Source: Bdellovibrionales bacterium (lineage in GTDB: Bacteria > Bdellovibrionota > Bdellovibrionia > Bdellovibrionales > UBA1609). Taken from it: a stretch of 64,000 bases of DNA. Where the stretch lies: positions 544,001 to 608,000 of the forward strand of contig CBDCMT010000001.1 of NCBI GenBank assembly GCA_965219095.1, read 5' to 3'. Below the pieces are notes generated by a model that had not been told where the DNA came from, ran no database searches, and worked only from the letters and a program-made list of their open reading frames with translations. Positions 30,048 through 60,115 of the stretch are shown here, piece by piece; positions within the stretch are counted from its first letter, which is position 1; the number at the start of each line of letters is the position of its first letter. The translations under genes were made by a program, and so were the position numbers.

Positions 30048-30091
30048 TGATCTTTCCCCAAAAAACTGTCCACTTTTTTGGAGAAAGATCA
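30048..30091. mobile_element. 44-bp IS3-like IR-IR scar (hairpin) just after icmF
   Basis: TGATCTTTCCCCAAAAAA-CTGTCCAC-TTTTTTGGAGAAAGATCA; TG...CA termini. Confidence 0.65.
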
Positions 30092-30099
30092 ATCACATA

Positions 30100-30196
30100 A
30101 AATGATTCATAGTGGTAAACCTATTAACAAAGTCAAAGTAGCTTGTGCTAGAGAGATGTTGGGTTTTGTATTATGGGAGTGTTTCAATGAAGTGAC
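30100..30196 (+). pseudogene. IS110 transposase C-terminal remnant (probably family A)
   Basis: KMIHSGKPINKVKVACAREMLGFV..W matches the GK..N...VA.AREL.GF.W C-terminus of IS110 transposases. Confidence 0.65.
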
Positions 30197-30369: not shown

Positions 30370-30555
30370 TTTACGCTGTCCTAGATGACATACATAGCAA
30401 AGTCGTTGAAAAAAGATTAAGCGGCAAAGCTCTTTCGTGTCATCTTAATGCGTTAACCAGCATGCAGATATGAGGTTGATAGTACAGAAGACTCATTTTT
30501 GAAAAACTTTTTTGTAAATGGAGAAGTGTTTTTTCTTGATATACTTTTTGATAGA
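30370..30555 (+). mobile_element. IS110 family-A 3' non-coding region (unsplit) fused to a family-B right end
   Basis: 30392-30453 matches 57266-57328; 30451-30514 matches 58980-59044; 30508-30555 matches the reverse complement of 57328-57375. Confidence 0.8.
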
Positions 30556-31076
30556 CACTCTAAAAATTTAACAGAGTTTGATTAAAAAGACAGGATGCTA
30601 TGCGTTAAAAAAAATGTCGAATTAATTTTTGGAAATGGTATAAGAAGGGCTTTTTGAATAAACTTTGTAAATTTTTCAAGTAGATAGAAGACAGTGAGGC
30701 TTCCATGGAGGTTTTTGTTTGTTAAGAAACAACAAGTTTACACAAAGTGACTCATTGGCATGAGTAGAAATAGTGGAGTAATTTTTTAAATTTGATATTT
30801 AAGAATAAGACTGATAATTTGCTACATTATTTTCTAAAGCTTCTAACAGACTGTTTTTAAAGGGTTTTTTGTGGTCCAAAGAAAATTCATAAGAAATCCA
30901 CATTTTTTCTGTTTTTAAAAACCACTCTAAAACCTTTGTAAATGAGGAAAATTTAAATTTTTCTTGTTTTTTTCTGCTTTAATGCTATAAGTTCAAACAA
31001 AAGAGAAGGAATGAAAAAAAGCGTAGCTTGTAGAGTGGAAAAGCTTTTATTGATTCTTTCTATACGGTAGGAAAGA

Positions 31077-50060: not shown

Positions 50061-52025
50061 TTAACGACCACGACTGCGGCCTCCAGAACGTGAACGTCCC
50101 CTTCTTCCTCTTTCCTCTCCATAATACCTTCTTCCACCTCTATATCTACCGTAGTAAAAATCACCACCACCACTAAAGTCACCATAAATATAATCTCTAT
50201 ACACTTCTTGAACCTGAGATTGAAGAATGCCCATTTGTTGATACAATCCTTGCAATCTTTGTTGAGCTATTTGTTGGTTTTGTATTCTTCTTTGTTGGTA
50301 TTCCATAGCTACTTGAATGGCTTGAAATTGAGAACCGCCTAAACCACCGCCTCCTAAGCCACCTCCTAGAATTAAGTTCAATAGTCCATTGCCGCCTCCT
50401 AAGCCACCGCCTCCTAAGCCACCGCCTCCTAAGCCACCTCCTAGAATTAAGTTCAATAGTCCATTGCTGCCTCCTAAGCCACCGCCTCCTAAGCCACCGC
50501 CTCCTAAGCCACCTCCTAGAATTAAGTTCAATAGTCCATTGCCGCCTCCTAAGCCACCGCCTCCTAAGCCACCGCCTCCTAAGCCACCTCCTAGAATTAA
50601 GTTCAATAGTCCACCGCCGCCGCCTCCTAAGCCACCGCCTCCTAAGCCACCTCCTAGAATTAAGTTCAATAGTCCACCGCCGCCGCCTCCTAAGCCACCG
50701 CCTCCTAAGCCACCTCCTAGAATTAAGTTCAATAGTCCACCGCCGCCGCCGCCTCCTAGACCTGGATTAGCATAAAAAGGACTTAAACCAGAGCGAAGAA
50801 GCAAAGGAAGAGCTTGAGGACCATAAAGAGATAGGAGAGAATTATAACCAAAGTTTCCATGAAGATTCCAAGCCCCATTAGTTCCTCCTCCTAGACCACC
50901 TGATCCATACATTTTTGAACAAAGAAGAGCATGTTGAGAAGAATTGCCTCCGGAAAATAAAAAAGGCCAAAGAGCTGAAATACCTGCACCAGCAACTGCT
51001 CCTGATGGAGTAGGAAACCCTAAACGACTACGATGATCAATAGCTCTATCAGCTAAATATACAGAAGTTCCCACACCAATAGCAGCACCTAAGACTCTTT
51101 CAAAAATATCCCAACCCGACTGTTTTGGTTTTTGATAACAAAGCCCTGAAGGACAATGAGCCTGCAAACTGCCGGACCGTATTTTTTTCTGCAAACTTTC
51201 AATCGCATCTTCTTTTTCATCTTCATGATCGTCTAAAGCATCTTCTAAATTAGTAAATAGTTCTTCAAGGGTTTCAATATAATTTATTTGATTTTCTCTT
51301 GATTCTAAGGCATTTTTAATTTGTTTTTTACATGGGATTAAAGAGGTTTTTTTACAAACTATACCACTTAAAAATTCTGTCGCATTATCTTTGTCCATTT
51401 TACCATTATTACATACTTTCTCATTAGAAGTGTTAACAGTATCATTATCATTTTCTTTGCATTTACCCTCCTTAAAGTTATCTTGATTAATTTTGTTTTT
51501 ACACCCAAGATCAGGATACCTATGCACTAGATCAATAAGTTCACTTTTCGAAACACCCACATCTGTACCATCTCTTTCACACTTAAGGTTATCCTTAATA
51601 AAATCTCCTTTGCTAAACTTACGAGAAATTCCCTTTTGTATATCATCATCACCTCCATGATAGCCTGTTAAAGTACAATTGTCTGCTATCTCATCGAGAT
51701 CAATTTCTTCATTATCATTATCTTCAAGTGTAAAAAGCTCATCTATATCTTCTATATTAGAAGGATCAACTTCCAAATTTATTTTTAAACCGCAATATCT
51801 TTTTGTTTCCTTTGAAAGGTCTCTTATCTTATCTTTTATTTTTTCTATATTATTTTTTATATCTTTAACATTTTTTTTATAACCTTGATGGTGTTGTACC
51901 AACAAATCATTTATTGTAATAGGCTGGGGGCATCGATTAGATAACCACTGTGGTGTATATAAAAAGCCTGAAGCTGAAACTCCAAAGGTTAACGTCAATA
52001 TTAAAAGACTGTACTTAAATTTCAT
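50061..52025 (-). CDS. secreted Cys-rich / coiled-coil protein with Gly-rich repeat region
   Basis: ATG at 52025 with RBS GAGGGGG; signal peptide; GGGL repeats; Gln-rich helix; Arg/Gly-rich tail. Confidence 0.8.
   Translation of the reverse strand: MKFKYSLLILTLTFGVSASGFLYTPQWLSNRCPQPITINDLLVQHHQGYKKNVKDIKNNIEKIKDKIRDLSKETKRYCGLKINLEVDPSNIEDIDELFTLEDNDNEEIDLDEIADNCTLTGYHGGDDDIQKGISRKFSKGDFIKDNLKCERDGTDVGVSKSELIDLVHRYPDLGCKNKINQDNFKEGKCKENDNDTVNTSNEKVCNNGKMDKDNATEFLSGIVCKKTSLIPCKKQIKNALESRENQINYIETLEELFTNLEDALDDHEDEKEDAIESLQKKIRSGSLQAHCPSGLCYQKPKQSGWDIFERVLGAAIGVGTSVYLADRAIDHRSRLGFPTPSGAVAGAGISALWPFLFSGGNSSQHALLCSKMYGSGGLGGGTNGAWNLHGNFGYNSLLSLYGPQALPLLLRSGLSPFYANPGLGGGGGGGLLNLILGGGLGGGGLGGGGGGLLNLILGGGLGGGGLGGGGGGLLNLILGGGLGGGGLGGGGLGGGNGLLNLILGGGLGGGGLGGGGLGGSNGLLNLILGGGLGGGGLGGGGLGGGNGLLNLILGGGLGGGGLGGSQFQAIQVAMEYQQRRIQNQQIAQQRLQGLYQQMGILQSQVQEVYRDYIYGDFSGGGDFYYGRYRGGRRYYGEERGRRGRSRSGGRSRGR
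50334..50760 (-). repeat. coding tandem repeat with six LLNLILGG units
   Basis: AGAATTAAGTTCAATAGTCCA recurs at 50368, 50443, 50518, 50593, 50656, 50719 (periods 75,75,75,63,63), separated by 15-bp GGGGL subrepeats. Confidence 0.95.
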
Positions 52026-52536
52026 AAAATCCCCCTCTATAATAGACACTTCCTAGATTACCATACACAGGAAGAAAACTCAAAATAAGGCCTTTCAGAA
52101 AACAGGACTTGAGTCCTGTTAATTTTTTAGAACAATTCCGATTCTGACAGATAACAAAAGAGTTTTTTTAAACTTTGGAAGAGACAATCACATTTTTGCT
52201 AATCTAACTATATATGACATTTCTTTTTTTTTACTTTAGTCTAGCTCTCTTTCAAAATTTGATCCTGCTTCAAAGGGGAAAGACTTTTTCTCTCTTCCTT
52301 ACCTTTAATGAGATTTACAACTTTAATGCAAAAGTTTTAATATAAAGACCAGCAAAATAAAATTCAGATATAGCACTCAAAAAGAATAGAACTTTTCTTC
52401 ATTTAGGTTAGAAGAGTTCTGCTGTTCAACTGTGTTTCAAAGAAGATTCAAAACTTAGTAAGCCTTTTGAAGTTTTTTGTTTGAAATGAGAAACTTTTAG
52501 CTACAAATTTTCAGGAGAACTTGAAAAAACACAAAT

Positions 52537-54720: not shown

Positions 54721-55679
54721 AAAAGAAAAAAAACAAAGCTTTCACAAAAAAAAAGAAACTACTTAGAAAAAAGACACTTCAAAAAACAAATAAAACCTTC
54801 GCAAAACTCAAGCCTATTAAGAAGGAACTTGTTAAACCTACTTCCGCACCCTCCCTCTATGATCCTCTGTCTGTGTATATATCTCAAATTCAAAAATATA
54901 AAATTTTATCTAAACAAGAAGAGAAAAAAATTGCCATTGAATACAAAAAAACAGGAAACAAAGATCTAGCTCAAAAGCTCATAACCTCTAACCTTCGCTT
55001 TGTAGTTAAAATTGCAAGCCAGTACTCTCAACTAGGAGTTCAACTCATTGAACTCATACAACAAGGCAACATCGGTCTTATGCATGCTGTAAAAGAATTT
55101 AACCCTTATAAAGACATTCGTCTTATTACCTATGCTGTATGGTGGATTAGAGGCTACATTCAAGAGTACTTAAGAAACCAGTACTCTATTGTCAAAATAG
55201 GCACCACCCCTGAACAAAGAAAACTTTTCTACGCTCTACAAAGAGAAAAAAGCAAAATTGATGAATTAGGCTACTCCACAGTCATAAGACAACTTAGTGG
55301 AAAGCTCAACATAAAAGAAAAAGATGTAAAAGAAATGGGGGAAAGAATTTTACAAAGAGATATAAGCTTAGATCAAAAAATAAAACCCGATCAAGAAAAA
55401 ACTTTCTTAGAAATGCAACCAGAAGAAGAATCTCTTGAAGAAAAAGTAGCCTACAGGGAGCAAATTTACAAACTCAAAGAGAGTATTGAGAAACTAAAAC
55501 CCCAGCTCAATGAAAAAGAGCTTTTTATTTTAAATCATCGTATTATGTCTGACTCCCCTATGACCCTTCAAGATATTGGAAATCACAGAGGCGTTAGTCG
55601 TGAATCAATAAGACAAATGGAGGCTCGTATTATACAAAAAATAAAAAATTTCACTCACAAACAACTTAAAAAAGAATAA
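54717..55679 (+). CDS. rpoH: RNA polymerase sigma-32 (RpoH-like) factor
   Basis: LITSNLRFVVKIA, GNIGLMHAVKEF, YAVWWIR, RpoH box VKIGTT..QRKLFY.L, region 4 VSRESIRQ.E. Confidence 0.85.
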   Translation: MKKKKNKAFTKKKKLLRKKTLQKTNKTFAKLKPIKKELVKPTSAPSLYDPLSVYISQIQKYKILSKQEEKKIAIEYKKTGNKDLAQKLITSNLRFVVKIASQYSQLGVQLIELIQQGNIGLMHAVKEFNPYKDIRLITYAVWWIRGYIQEYLRNQYSIVKIGTTPEQRKLFYALQREKSKIDELGYSTVIRQLSGKLNIKEKDVKEMGERILQRDISLDQKIKPDQEKTFLEMQPEEESLEEKVAYREQIYKLKESIEKLKPQLNEKELFILNHRIMSDSPMTLQDIGNHRGVSRESIRQMEARIIQKIKNFTHKQLKKE

Positions 55680-55799
55680 ACTTTAACTTTAAGTAACTGT
55701 TTGAAAAAAATCTAGTTATGTTTTCAGATTTTTTGAGTTGAGGTCTAGTTTTTATTCTAAGGCCTTGATAAAAAGTCATTTATTTTTAAAAATAGTTTC

Positions 55800-55850
55800 A
55801 TATGACAATTCTCCCTTTAGATTCTAAAAACCTAAACGGAAGTACTATAT
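55800..55850 (+). mobile_element. IS630 right-end remnant
   Basis: AAAACCTAAACGGAAGTACTATA vs AAAACCTAAACGGAAGCACTATA at 57241. Confidence 0.7.
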
Positions 55851-56214
55851 GAGCAAGAATGAAAAGCCTAAAAACGACAATCACAAGGCTCTTTCAAGAG
55901 TGTCTATCAAAAAGAAAATATGGATGACCAGCCTTTTTTTGAAAAGCTGGGACTTAAAAACCCTGATTAGAAGAGTTAGACTCATCTAAGAAGTAAGCTC
56001 ATAAAAAGGAGCTTACTATTAACAATAAAAAAGGAGGTCATCCAATGAAAAATATAATGTATATCGGACTAGACGTCGATGATAAAAGTTTCACAGCTAG
56101 CTTAGTCAAAGAGGGCTTAAGCGACGAGGTCATAAGTATAAAGAGCCGTCCCAACTTTAAAGCCTTTCAGAAAAAGATAGAGAGGTTTATAAAAGAAGGC
56201 TACCAATTAAAGGT

Positions 56215-56390
56215 TGAACTTCCCCTGTTTCTGCGGACAGTCAATTTTCTCTTAAAGTCTCCGTAAAATGGAGGTAAAAGAAAGAATGAAAAAGTAAAAC
56301 AGTACTCGGAAGAGTTTAAAAAGCAAGCCATTGAATTGGCAGAGGAAATAGGTGCAAAGGAAGCCTCAGAGAAGCTAGGACTGAGAAATT
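56215..56390 (+). mobile_element. IS3-family left end and orfA fragment
   Basis: TGAACTTCCCCTGTTTCTGCGGACAG; ATG 56286 MKKVKQYSEEFKKQAIELA (HTH_Tnp_1-like). Confidence 0.8.
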
Positions 56391-56472
56391 TCAAAGCTAT
56401 GTTATCTATAGCATGTATTTTTATTTGGCTTAAACTTCAAAGTAAAGGTCCAGTCAAATGAGGACACGCCCT
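56384..56472 (+). mobile_element. IS5 transposase C-terminus and right end
   Basis: RNFKAMLSIACIFIWLKLQSKGPVK* followed by GGACACGCCCT. Confidence 0.75.
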
Positions 56473-56473
56473 A

Positions 56474-57263
56474 AGAAAGAGGAGAAAATGCTTTTAAAGG
56501 AATTAGAGAAAAGAATTTTTCCATCATCACAATCTGTTATCCAGTTCATTGAGGAGAATTTTGGTGTTACGTACTTTAACAAGTGGTGTAATTGATCTTC
56601 TCCATCGCCTTGGTTTTTCTTATAAAAAAGCCACAGCGATACCGGGTAAGGCAAAGAGAGAAGAGCAGAAAAAGTTTGTGCGTAAATACAAGAGAATTAA
56701 GAAGAAAGACGGTCCTGTTTACTTTGCTGATTCCACACATCCTGAGTGGGGCCCTACGATTTCATATGGTTGGATAAGAGAGGGTAAGAAGTTTGAAGTG
56801 AAGACCAATTCAGGCTGGAGAAAAAGAGTGAATGTTTGTGGAGCTATTGAGATCAATAGTTTGAAGACGGTAGTCAGGAGTTATAAGACAGTTAACCATG
56901 TTTCCATATGTGATATGCTCCATCATATTCGCAAGAAGCATCCCGATGAAAAAGAGATTCATCTTATCTTAGATGGGGCCGGATACAATAGATCGAAGTC
57001 TGTCAAGAAGTTAGCGAAAGAGTTGAATATAAAACTTGTTTATCTTCCTCCGTACTCACCGAATTTAAATCCTATAGAAAGACTTTGGAAGTTTATGAAA
57101 AAAGAAGTCACGGCGAATCGATATTATGAAAACTATGACGATTTCAAGGGAAGTTTAAGTCAATTTTTTAGAGGAATACGAAAACACAGATCTAAATTAG
57201 AAACTTTGATAACTGATAACTTCTCTATCTTAGGAAACTGAAAACCTAAACGGAAGCACTATA
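56474..57263 (+). mobile_element. 5'-truncated IS630-family element
   Basis: LHRLGFSYKK, YFAD, LILDGAGY, LPPYSPNLNPIERLW; right IR ends CACTATA. Confidence 0.88.
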
Positions 57264-57328
57264 TAACATAGCAAAGTCGTTGAAAAAAAGATTAAGGGGC
57301 AAAGCTCTTTCGTGTCATCTTAATGCGT

Positions 57329-58979
57329 CTATCAAAAAGTATGTCAAGAAAAAACACTTCTCCATTTACAAAAAATATAAAAAATTTTTTTTTGCATACG
57401 GTCACGAATATTCTAATCACCTAAGAAAAAACTTCCTGCATTTCCTTTCCATTTTTTAATGACTCTTCCTTTACACATTGTAAAACAAACATATTCCTAT
57501 TATGCGTCTATCTGAACCTTTTTTAGTTTTAAATCATGAATTCCAAAGATTTAAAACTTTAGATTATAGTAAATTTCAGGAATAGAGGATGTGCTATTCG
57601 TCGAAATGAATTTTTTATAAATATCATTTTTATTAAGCTATCTATCCTCACCTCATAAAGTCATTATTTGTATTGTTACTTACTATGCAAGAAACTTTAA
57701 ACAGATGATTTTACAAGGTTGTTTTATTATTATTTACATTTTTACGTTCTTCATAAGGTTTATATTTTTTTCCAGACTTGAAAACACCTAAAGTTAAAGC
57801 TGCAATTCTTCTAGTTGGTAGCGTTTCTAGCAGTGTGTGGTGGTAAATTTTTTTTGATCAATTCTTCATAAAAATCATTAAATTCATTGTTATTTCCTAT
57901 AACTGAGAGTGCAGCTATCTTAAAAACACTTTTCATTTGTGGGCAAAACCTAGACTTCTTAGTTCCATAAGACCTTCCACTACTCATTTTATGTAGCTTT
58001 ACAAGTCCGCAGTCCACTCCACCAGGAATTACGTTTAAATCGATGAGGCACTACAACCCTGGCTACAATCTTGATAGCCTTGATAGAACCAATTCCTGGA
58101 ATGCTACTAAGATTTCTAATATCTTTGTGTTTTTTACTTAGCCTCTTAAACTCTGCTTCATAACGTGCTTTCTCCTCCCCATAAGCACTGATAGCTTTAT
58201 CTAAGCCTTCTAGAACAAATATATCTCTTCTGCCCGTTTTAATTGAGTCTGCTTCTTAGCATCAAGATGGGAAGCTCGAAACAGAGCTGATCTTTGGTTT
58301 TTAACACGAACTCCTCTTTTAACTACATCTTCATACCCACTGACAATCTTACGAAGGTAAATGAATTCATCACCTGAGTGAAAAACTGGTTTCAAAAGGC
58401 CAGAGCGTAACAATAAAACAAGTTTTTCAGCATCAATTTTATCAGTTTTAGCCCCTTCACTTAAAAGTCTGTTCCGAAGAGGATCACAGACTATGAACTC
58501 ATCAACACTATCCTTTAATTCTGAATACAACCACTATCGAAGTTGTAGTCTCTTCGATAGTCAATATCTTCTTACCTTTCAGAGTTTTTAAATAGGCACG
58601 AAGATTCCCAAGATCTGAAATCGTGTCCATAGTCTTAATATCTTTTGATTTGCCTGTCATCCTTGAAATGGCCATGTTACTTTGTGCCCAATCTACGGCT
58701 ATATAGTGATCATACATTTTATTTTCCTCCTTTGTTGGTTTGTTTATAAATAAAGTCTTGAAATCCTATTTTACATCTTTTTTTTGCTTTTTCCTTTTTT
58801 TCGAGTAAGCCTTCACAAAAATACAGGCTTAATCGAAAAAAAGGGAAAACACCCTTTGAGGCCTTAAAAAGCAGGACAGCTAAAGGGTTTAGAATTTGTT
58901 TCAACAAGTTAACCTCCTTCTGCAAGTACTTTAGGGTCACTATCATGGCTTAAACCAGTGACCTGTCTTTTTGATTTAC
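57329..58979 (-). mobile_element. IS110 family-B element; transposase pseudogene at about 57737-58717
   Basis: YIAVDW, EET, KTDKIDA..L, SIPGIG, CGL...SSG, split by about 4 frameshifts; subterminal IR ATCAAAAAG/CTTTTTGAT; TTGACA near the right end; CGT core at both junctions. Confidence 0.85.
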
Positions 58980-59143
58980 CGTTAACCAGCACGCAGATAT
59001 GAGGTTGATAGTACAGAAGACTCATTTTTGAAAAACTTTTTTGTCAATGACTTACTTTTCTTGCTTGACTGACTGGTCATCCATAAGAGTATACATACTC
59101 TTATGACTTGCCAAGAACTTTGAAACACATGATAATGAGTGGT

Positions 59144-60115
59144 ATGCAACATATCTCCTTACAAGTTTTTAAATTTCTCCAAAAAACCTTTAAAAAACAG
59201 CCTTTAGTTGTGCAGAAGCTTATAGGAGATGCGAGCTTAAGGAATTATTTTAGGCTTTCAATGAAAAAACAGACTTATATAGTTATGGTTACAGATTCTT
59301 TTTTGTCAAAGAAAGATTTATTCTTGAAAGTTCAGGACTCTTATAGAAGGGCTTTCGTTCAGGTACCTCAGATTAAAACTTACTCAGAAAAGTTAGGAGT
59401 GATTGTCTTAGAGGACTTAGGAGACAAGGCTTTAGAAATGTTCCCCCTACCTCAATATACAGATCTTTATAAAAAGGCTATTGATGAACTTATGAAGATT
59501 CACTTTAAAGTCAGTTCTAAAAGTATAGGGTATAAGACGAGTTTTGATGTCAAAACGTTTATGTGGGAGATAGATCATTCTTTAGAGTATTTTGTGAGAA
59601 AGAATATGAAAATTAATCTTGAAGATTCTTTTAAAAGAGAGATTCGAAGGGAGTTTTTAGATATCTGTTCTAAATTGTCTCTTATGTGCCACTTTCTTTG
59701 CCATAGAGATTATCACTCAAGAAACATCATGGTCTATAACGATAAGACTTTTGTAATAGATTTTCAACATTCAAGAAAAGGACCTTTGGCTTATGACATT
59801 GTAAGCCTCCTCCATGACCCTTATCATGAAATGAATTATTATATGAGAAAAAAATTTTATGACTACTTTCTTTACAGAACACAAGAGTTTTGCAATCTTT
59901 CAAAAGAAAATTTTAAATCTCAATACCACTTACAGATTTTACAAAGATGCTTTAAGATCTGTGGTAATTATGCGGCCATTTTTCACTTAAACCACAATAA
60001 CAGATATTTAAAGTACATACGGCCTTCTGTGAGAAGTCTCTGCGAAGGTTTTTATTTTCACCCCTATTATAAACATATAGGAATGTTGCTTGAACGCATC
60101 AAAGGTTTTTTATGA
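59144..60115 (+). CDS. APH-fold phosphotransferase, AmgK-like
   Basis: GDASLRNYFR, LEDLGD, HRDYHSRN, IDFQ, YDIVSLL.D; upstream of a MurU-like gene. Confidence 0.85.
   Translation: MQHISLQVFKFLQKTFKKQPLVVQKLIGDASLRNYFRLSMKKQTYIVMVTDSFLSKKDLFLKVQDSYRRAFVQVPQIKTYSEKLGVIVLEDLGDKALEMFPLPQYTDLYKKAIDELMKIHFKVSSKSIGYKTSFDVKTFMWEIDHSLEYFVRKNMKINLEDSFKREIRREFLDICSKLSLMCHFLCHRDYHSRNIMVYNDKTFVIDFQHSRKGPLAYDIVSLLHDPYHEMNYYMRKKFYDYFLYRTQEFCNLSKENFKSQYHLQILQRCFKICGNYAAIFHLNHNNRYLKYIRPSVRSLCEGFYFHPYYKHIGMLLERIKGFL

What the first reader, a model, noticed from the sequence alone, without database searches (positions are those of the whole stretch)
57266..59085. One IS110 inserted precisely into the putative bridge-RNA region of another IS110 family, with the empty site in the same window
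Seen: at 30392-30514 the family-A 3' non-coding region reads ...CATCTTAATG-CGT-TAACCAGC... without a break. At 57266-59044 the same sequence is split by a 1651-bp family-B element (57329-58979, minus strand), with CGT at both junctions (57326-28 and 58980-82) and no long TSD. Established: IS110/IS1111 recombinases join donor and target at a short shared core, guided by a bridge/seek RNA from a non-coding end. Inference: family B may target the guide-RNA locus of family A, i.e. parasitism or conflict between RNA-guided recombinases.
Basis: partly seen in the sequence, partly recalled or inferred. Interest (0 to 1): 0.72.

Follow-up and report, generated by a model that had tools for sequence, protein, structure and literature searches.

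The report
Two IS110 elements targeting each other
In this transposon-crowded bacterial genome, two unrelated RNA-guided jumping genes sit inside one another: one carries a guide that spells the other's end, and a minor guide variant of the other best fits the first one's guide-RNA gene, which looks like mutual targeting between programmable elements, although both are now broken.

Summary
Observation confirmed. A 1.65-kb IS110-family element of IS1111 type (B, minus strand) splits the 3' non-coding end of a second, ~23%-related one (A). It sits on the top base of a conserved stem inside A's predicted donor-binding loop. Five of 10 loci holding this A hairpin are broken at that base, four by B ends. 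But A is a minor B target (3 of 50 B ends): B's main guides spell two sites of an IS630, and the window copy's own guide does not fit A. A third B guide (2 copies) has A's hairpin as 4 of its 5 best genomic sites. The stronger signal runs the other way. A's guide spells B's 3' end (30 of 31 perfect sites are B-like ends), and 16 of 29 A left ends sit at that base. So the nesting is mutual: A→B well supported, B→A probable and probably in trans. Both families are broken here; the junction was not found in 150 other genomes of the order. IS110s aimed at other mobile elements are known, and this scan noted IS110-in-bridge-RNA nesting on other DNA. Reciprocity was not found in print.

The parts
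57328..58981 (-).
   Evidence: empty joint skips 1654 in short-read contigs
57711..58717 (-). B recombinase pseudogene (DEDD domain; two frameshifts, one near codon 65 shared by 17 of 19 copies that cover it)
57490..57660 (-). Predicted B bridge RNA: target loop then donor loop
   Evidence: fold with two internal loops, z -1.58 only; guide register checked in relatives
57600..57633 (-). B target guides, variant V1 (left guide 57625-57633, right guide 57600-57606): spells the IS630-C right end, not the A site
57505..57574 (-). B donor guides (57569-57574 and 57505-57511) matching B's joined ends
   Evidence: read from sequence; the right donor guide motif recurs in relatives
57331..57339 (+). 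B sub-terminal inverted repeat at its 3' end
58967..58975 (+). B sub-terminal inverted repeat at its 5' end
57334..57346 (+). Unoccupied 13-nt target of A's guide inside B's 3' end, next to a TTGACA hexamer on B's strand (57341-57346)
57266..57327 (+). A non-coding end, 5' part: rest of target loop and 5' half of donor loop
58982..59089 (+). A non-coding end, 3' part: hairpin loop, right donor guide (58997-59003), sub-terminal repeat and right end
55903..55914 (+). Last 12 bases of a B 3' end: the site into which this A copy itself inserted
55915..56204 (+). A left end (sub-terminal repeat) and N-terminal coding piece (from 56045)
   Evidence: 46% to P0002 residues 3-57
56205..56400 (+). Fragment of a high-copy repeat interrupting A; IS3-like by its translation (label recalled, not profile-tested)
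56471..57265 (+). IS630-family element whose end sits at the TA inside A's left target guide
30084..30188 (+). C-terminal coding scrap of A
   Evidence: 63% to P0002 residues 336-369
30378..30480 (+). Uninterrupted predicted A bridge RNA: target guides 30386-30393 and 30410-30415 (spell B's 3' end), B landing point 30452/30453, right donor guide 30468-30474
30508..30556 (+). B 3' end fused onto this A copy, followed by an IS630-C 5' region

Best explanation
A and B are two distantly related IS1111-type bridge recombinase elements, each with a guide RNA downstream of its gene, and in this lineage each came to carry a guide for the other. SHOWN in sequence: A's target loop spells 13 bases of B's 3' end (core AG), and A and its 29-47-bp mini-derivatives sit at that base. 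B's target loop exists in at least three variants: two spell an IS630 exactly; the third (V3) fits A's donor-loop hairpin best and an IS481 end less well. INFERRED: the window's B, recombinase-dead and carrying the IS630 guide, was placed in A by a recombinase and V3 RNA made by another B copy, or had its guide swapped later by recombination between copies. INFERRED from the known bridge mechanism: B's insertion separates A's right donor guide from the rest of the RNA and should disable it. A's insertion moves B's -35-like hexamer away from the circle junction but leaves B's end and repeat intact, so B may lose its junction promoter yet still carry A. The likeliest benefit is a harmless, abundant landing site in a genome that is one-third repeats; harm to the rival may be a side effect.
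For: A→B: 30 of 31 perfect guide sites are B-like ends. 16 of 29 A left ends follow a B 3' end and 2 more a B-like 5' end; 16 of 50 B 3' ends carry A. Mini-A elements with both junctions in a B-like end at C2:781967 and C2:2131560. Two B-end alleles and at least 9 different outer flanks. A's guide positions predict flanks in G243, G298 and two G391 elements. B→A: 3 left and 2 right junctions at one base, plus one foreign join at that base. The three left-junction B ends differ in SNPs. V3 has no perfect site; 4 of its 5 one-edit sites are A hairpins; a random guide is that close about 1 time in 100,000. B's guide register matches flanks at 7 or more bases in 8 of 17 relatives' loci with a readable flank. 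Trans action: guide and flank agree in only 5 of 13 V1/V2 copies with a flank, and 17 of 19 copies share one frameshift.
Against: A is a minor B target (3 of 50). No V3 copy sits in A: the one V3 copy with a flank is in an IS481 end, a site 3 edits away that took 7 of 50. The V3-A match needs a one-base bulge. The window B shows no special closeness to the V3 copy. Junction counts are inflated to an unknown degree by duplication and rearrangement. Among 29 A right ends only 4 continue into a clear B end, 5 more are within one mismatch of the guide, and 16 are unrelated. No intact recombinase of either family was found and no RNA was observed. The junction is absent from 14 A-bearing genomes and 150 genomes of the order; among 35 distinct A-family rows, the one flanked by a B-like end was from this genome.
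Confidence: 0.65

Rival explanations
1. One-way targeting: A is programmed against B, while B's hits in A are off-target or half-match events of a guide (V3) kept for the IS481 end or for a site now lost, later multiplied by duplication.
For: IS481 ends took more B insertions (7 of 50) than A hairpins (3 of 50), and the V3 copy with a flank is in IS481. One- and two-mismatch off-targets, and half-matches, are documented for IS621 (PMC11208160 passages; 10.64898/2026.08.31.748434 section 8).
Against: V3 fits A (1 edit) better than IS481 (3 edits) and matches both arms. IS481 ends are about four times more numerous (39 empty), so per site A is hit more often (4 of 10 loci). The filled copies differ in B-end alleles.
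Confidence: 0.22
2. Selected conflict: each element was retargeted because disabling the other pays (an arms race), B cutting A's guide RNA and A cutting B's promoter.
For: Each lands in a functional part of the other: an A motif conserved in 12 other genomes and a spot beside B's TTGACA hexamer. A-family guides elsewhere aim at unrelated sites, so the anti-B guide is a local acquisition.
Against: B's main guides aim at IS630, which is no RNA-guided rival. The window's A was also broken by other ISs. No clear escape-and-chase series was found. No recurrence in other genomes.
Confidence: 0.1
3. Chance nesting in a repeat-saturated genome, or an assembly artefact.
For: 33-43% of the genome is repeated; no listed short-read contig bridged a filled junction.
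Against: Same-base recurrence at separate loci with different SNPs, and guides that spell the sites.
Confidence: 0.03

Closest known systems
IS1111-group elements with a right-end seekRNA/bridge RNA (ISEc11; PMC11187229, passages read; PMC11208160, passages read)
   Same: DEDD recombinase, sub-terminal inverted repeats, long downstream non-coding end with guides matching target and donor, no target duplication, RNA and enzyme able to act in trans
   Different: A and B are separate, decayed lineages; their targets are each other and other ISs; B carries at least three guide variants within one genome
IS4321/IS5075 (target Tn21 terminal repeats) and IS1383 (targets IS1384 inverted repeats); titles seen only, in the reference list of PMC11208160
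   Same: An IS110-family element aimed at the end of another mobile element, as A does to B and B does to IS630 and IS481
   Different: There, by their titles, the host is not described as an RNA-guided element and no return targeting is stated; here both partners are bridge recombinases
ISEc21, which targets the catalytic codons of IS3-family transposases (PMC11187229 passage)
   Same: Guide aimed at a conserved functional part of another IS
   Different: The part hit here is a conserved RNA hairpin of another IS110's guide RNA, and the match is imperfect
IS621 bridge RNA (PMC11208160)
   Same: Order of target loop then donor loop, two-base core, tolerance of mismatches
   Different: Guide at the right end; A shows no clear left donor guide

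Membership tests
IS110 family (B) | DEDD RuvC-like recombinase domain | tested here: met
   PF01548 31.2 bits, cut-off 29, on a fragment. The intact relative L020 scores 116.8 on NF033542, below its cut-off of 140.
IS110 family (A) | DEDD domain plus Transposase_20 domain | tested here: met
   P0001 hits PF01548 below cut-off; full-length relative P0002 (61%) carries both domains and passes NF033542; pieces tile P0002
IS1111 group (A and B) | Sub-terminal inverted repeats of 7-17 bp | tested here: met
   B 9 bp; A about 14 bp
IS1111 group (A and B) | Longer non-coding region, holding the guides, downstream of the gene | tested here: met
   B about 380 nt downstream against 260 upstream; A guides downstream in relatives
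IS1111 group (A and B) | Recombinase related over full length to that of IS1111 itself | not tested
   No comparison with IS1111 or tree was run
Bridge/seek RNA systems | Target guides that change with the target site | tested here: met
   B relatives, B variants V1/V2 against 47 and 25 exact sites, A relatives
Bridge/seek RNA systems | Donor guides that match the element's joined ends | tested here: inconclusive
   A's right donor guide changes with the right end in 5 of 7 distinct pairs, one mismatch in 2; no left donor guide was identified for A; B's left donor guide is a 6-nt match only
Bridge/seek RNA systems | No true target-site duplication; crossover in a short core | tested here: met
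   junction series
Bridge/seek RNA systems | RNA expressed and bound by the recombinase; circular intermediate | not testable with these tools
   No RNA holder listed

The most novel reading that the evidence does not exclude
A natural pair of bridge recombinases that were each retargeted against a functional part of the other (A against B's end and promoter, B's V3 guide against A's donor-binding loop), i.e. reciprocal RNA-programmed antagonism between mobile elements, with the guide changes still readable in one genome.
Probability: 0.3. Interest if true: 0.8.

Novelty: new variant of a known kind. Interest (0 to 1): 0.6.

Why it matters
How bridge RNAs acquire new targets in nature, and what those targets are for, is open. 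This genome holds three guide variants of one element with their matching sites, evidence that guides act on sister copies in trans, and two recombinases nested in each other at guide-specified bases. That makes retargeting, bulge tolerance and element-versus-element interference directly testable with short synthetic substrates. It is one genome, and both elements are dead.

Tried and rejected
Rfam on 55500-59300: only chance hairpin hits below cut-off. DNA search of 40 relatives: no B or A homolog, four short weak hits. Junction patterns: 0 of 14 A-bearing or A-like genomes for the left junction; one match for the right (G316), with no IS110 in it; 0 of 150 genomes of the order; one viral contig, with no IS110; the intact A motif in no viral contig. 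The metagenome collection was searched only with an A protein piece (1 weak locus), not for junctions, so recurrence there is open. L054 holds an intact A relative about 25 bases outside a B-like end: adjacent, not inserted in it, with a poor guide match; not counted. My first reading of A's hairpin (TTAA/TTAA) was replaced by the consensus stem GCGT/ACGC; its covariation is thin (1 double change; 24 of 500 shuffles as high). Single-sequence folds were not significant (z -1.58 and -1.66). No linear promoter was found at B's end; the junction promoter is inferred, with a weak -10. Looking for V3 ancestry in the window B: nothing. Sequencing runs: no RNA holder listed. The gene right of the locus is an AmgK-like sugar kinase beside MurU, below cut-off, not a resistance gene. 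Literature: searches and a term search of 10.64898/2026.08.14.744561 gave no report of reciprocal IS110 targeting. Only listings and abstracts were seen for most papers, no supplements were read (target tables there could list such cases), and Partridge and Hall 2003 was not held.

Full report
Setting. The window lies in a 3.11-Mb, two-contig, 34% GC genome, of which 33% is covered by five or more other copies and 43% by at least one. B's closest relatives are in records titled Bdellovibrionales (75% identity), so the host is probably of that phylum (inference).

Observation. Confirmed as written. B carries a frameshifted IS110 recombinase, 9-bp sub-terminal inverted repeats and a long 3' non-coding end. 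Junction series show that the donor supplies ...TTTACCG and TCTAT..., so B is best bounded 57328-58981, inserted between G and T with no duplication. A is a second IS110: its scattered pieces tile the full-length relative P0002, which is 23% identical to B's intact relative. No intact copy of either recombinase was found in the genome. The whole locus is a stack: B 3' end (55903-55914), A left end and N-terminus, a repeat fragment, an IS630, A's non-coding end, B, and the rest of A.

Is the site in A's bridge RNA? Yes, by prediction. In 16 aligned sequences (4 from this genome, 12 from relatives) the stretch around the site is the most conserved part of the non-coding end, and the motif is intact in 12 other genomes of 400 searched. 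The consensus fold puts a 5-bp stem with an 8-nt loop inside an internal loop whose 3' strand is the right donor guide. That guide changes with the element's right end in 5 of 7 distinct pairs. B sits at the top of that stem and separates the donor guide from the rest. Covariation for the stem itself is weak.

What does B aim at? Twenty-four copies or fragments of B's target loop were found: 7 of variant V1 (including the window), 9 of V2, 2 of V3 and 6 truncated. The guide register was checked on relatives: the left guide matches the flank at 7 or more bases in 8 of 17 loci with a readable flank, at 6 in 3 more, and poorly or mis-parsed in 6; the other 22 of 39 loci gave no guide or no flank. 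V1's 47 perfect sites are all the right end of an IS630, and V2's 25 are all a 5' site of the same IS630. Of 50 B 3' ends that the pattern classified, 19 and 9 are at these two sites, 7 at an IS481 end, 3 at A's hairpin, 1 at B's own donor guide and 11 elsewhere. Of 51 matches to B's 5' end (about 3 look like chance), 2 are at A's hairpin. The window copy's V1 guide is 7 edits from the A site. V3 has no perfect site; of its five one-edit sites four are A hairpins; the IS481 end is 3 edits away. A random guide comes this close to the A site about once in 100,000 draws. Against this, the one V3 copy with a flank sits in IS481, and the A match needs a one-base bulge.

Recurrence. Of 10 loci holding at least half the hairpin, 5 are intact, 4 are joined to B ends at the same base and 1 is joined there to foreign DNA. 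The three left-junction B ends differ in alleles, and filled and empty copies occur in both upstream contexts. I read this as at least two independent insertions; recombination between copies could mimic it. Guide and flank agree in only 5 of 13 V1/V2 copies with a flank, and 17 of 19 copies share one frameshift. Both fit movement in trans, which is shown for ISEc11 (PMC11187229 passages).

The reverse relation. A's target guides, whose positions predict the flanks in G243, G298 and two G391 elements, spell 13 bases of B's 3' end. Thirty of 31 perfect sites are B-like ends. Sixteen of 29 A left ends follow a B 3' end at that base and 2 follow a B-like 5' end; 16 of 50 B 3' ends carry A. Two of seven mini-A elements have both junctions in a B-like end. 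Right ends are less clean: 4 of 29 continue into a clear B end, 5 more are within one mismatch of the guide, 4 within two, and 16 are unrelated, as expected in a genome this rearranged but also a caution. The site lies next to a TTGACA hexamer on B's strand; in ISEc11 the joined ends form a promoter, so A may remove B's (inference; the -10 here is weak).

Generality. A-family relatives aim elsewhere: 1 of 35 distinct rows had a B-like flank, and it was from this genome. B-in-A junctions were not found in 14 selected genomes, 150 genomes of the order, or viral contigs. The metagenome collection was not scanned for junctions.

Comparison. It works like an IS1111-group bridge/seek RNA system and meets the features I could test. 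Targeting of other mobile elements is known: IS4321/IS5075 and IS1383 (titles only) and ISEc21 (passage). Off-target and half-match insertion are known for IS621. Six literature searches found no report of two IS110s targeting each other; supplements were not read. Earlier unchecked notes of this scan describe IS110s inside another's bridge RNA in other genomes, and an IS-end-targeting IS1111 relic in this genome; none held reciprocity between IS110s.

Verdict. A real, RNA-explicable nesting. A→B targeting is well supported; B→A is probable but rests on a minor, imperfect guide; selection for conflict is unproven. New variant of a known kind; interest 0.6.

Noticed in passing
genome-wide; e.g. 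G000:C1:158099, C2:1243560, C2:2131560, C2:781967: Seven 29-47-bp mini-A elements, near-perfect palindromes made of A's two ends, inserted at AG cores; likely moved in trans.
   Followed up: partly
window 57264-57265; G000:C2:1558481, C2:1720477, C1:65098: An IS630 end lies at the same TA inside A's left target guide at four loci, in both orientations, suggesting a hot spot.
   Followed up: partly
L079 (G000:C1:127382): B's V2 site overlaps the probable GTG start of the IS630 transposase.
   Followed up: no
G000:C2:715158: A B end is joined at B's own right-donor-guide DNA, which resembles half the donor: a possible donor half-match event.
   Followed up: no
G000:C1:65098 and C2:249167: An A copy with a changed right target guide, and an A junction whose flank matches that change.
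   Followed up: partly
G000:C1:430727: An A left end directly follows a B-like 5' end remnant; perhaps a B variant inserted at A's left boundary.
   Followed up: no
L057, L069 (G391); L093, L105, L113 (G316): A-family relatives insert at ribosome-binding-site-like sequences just before start codons.
   Followed up: no
L054:2900-4400: An intact A relative lies about 25 bases outside a decayed B-like end in another genome.
   Followed up: yes
L019 downstream of 3319; L028, L051, L052 flanks: B relatives lie next to sequence that looks like group II intron RNA (recalled resemblance, not tested).
   Followed up: no
G276: 31 copies of the A-family hairpin motif in one genome.
   Followed up: no
window 50064-52049: 662-aa ORF with internal tandem repeats (50335-50754) and no Pfam match.
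   Followed up: no
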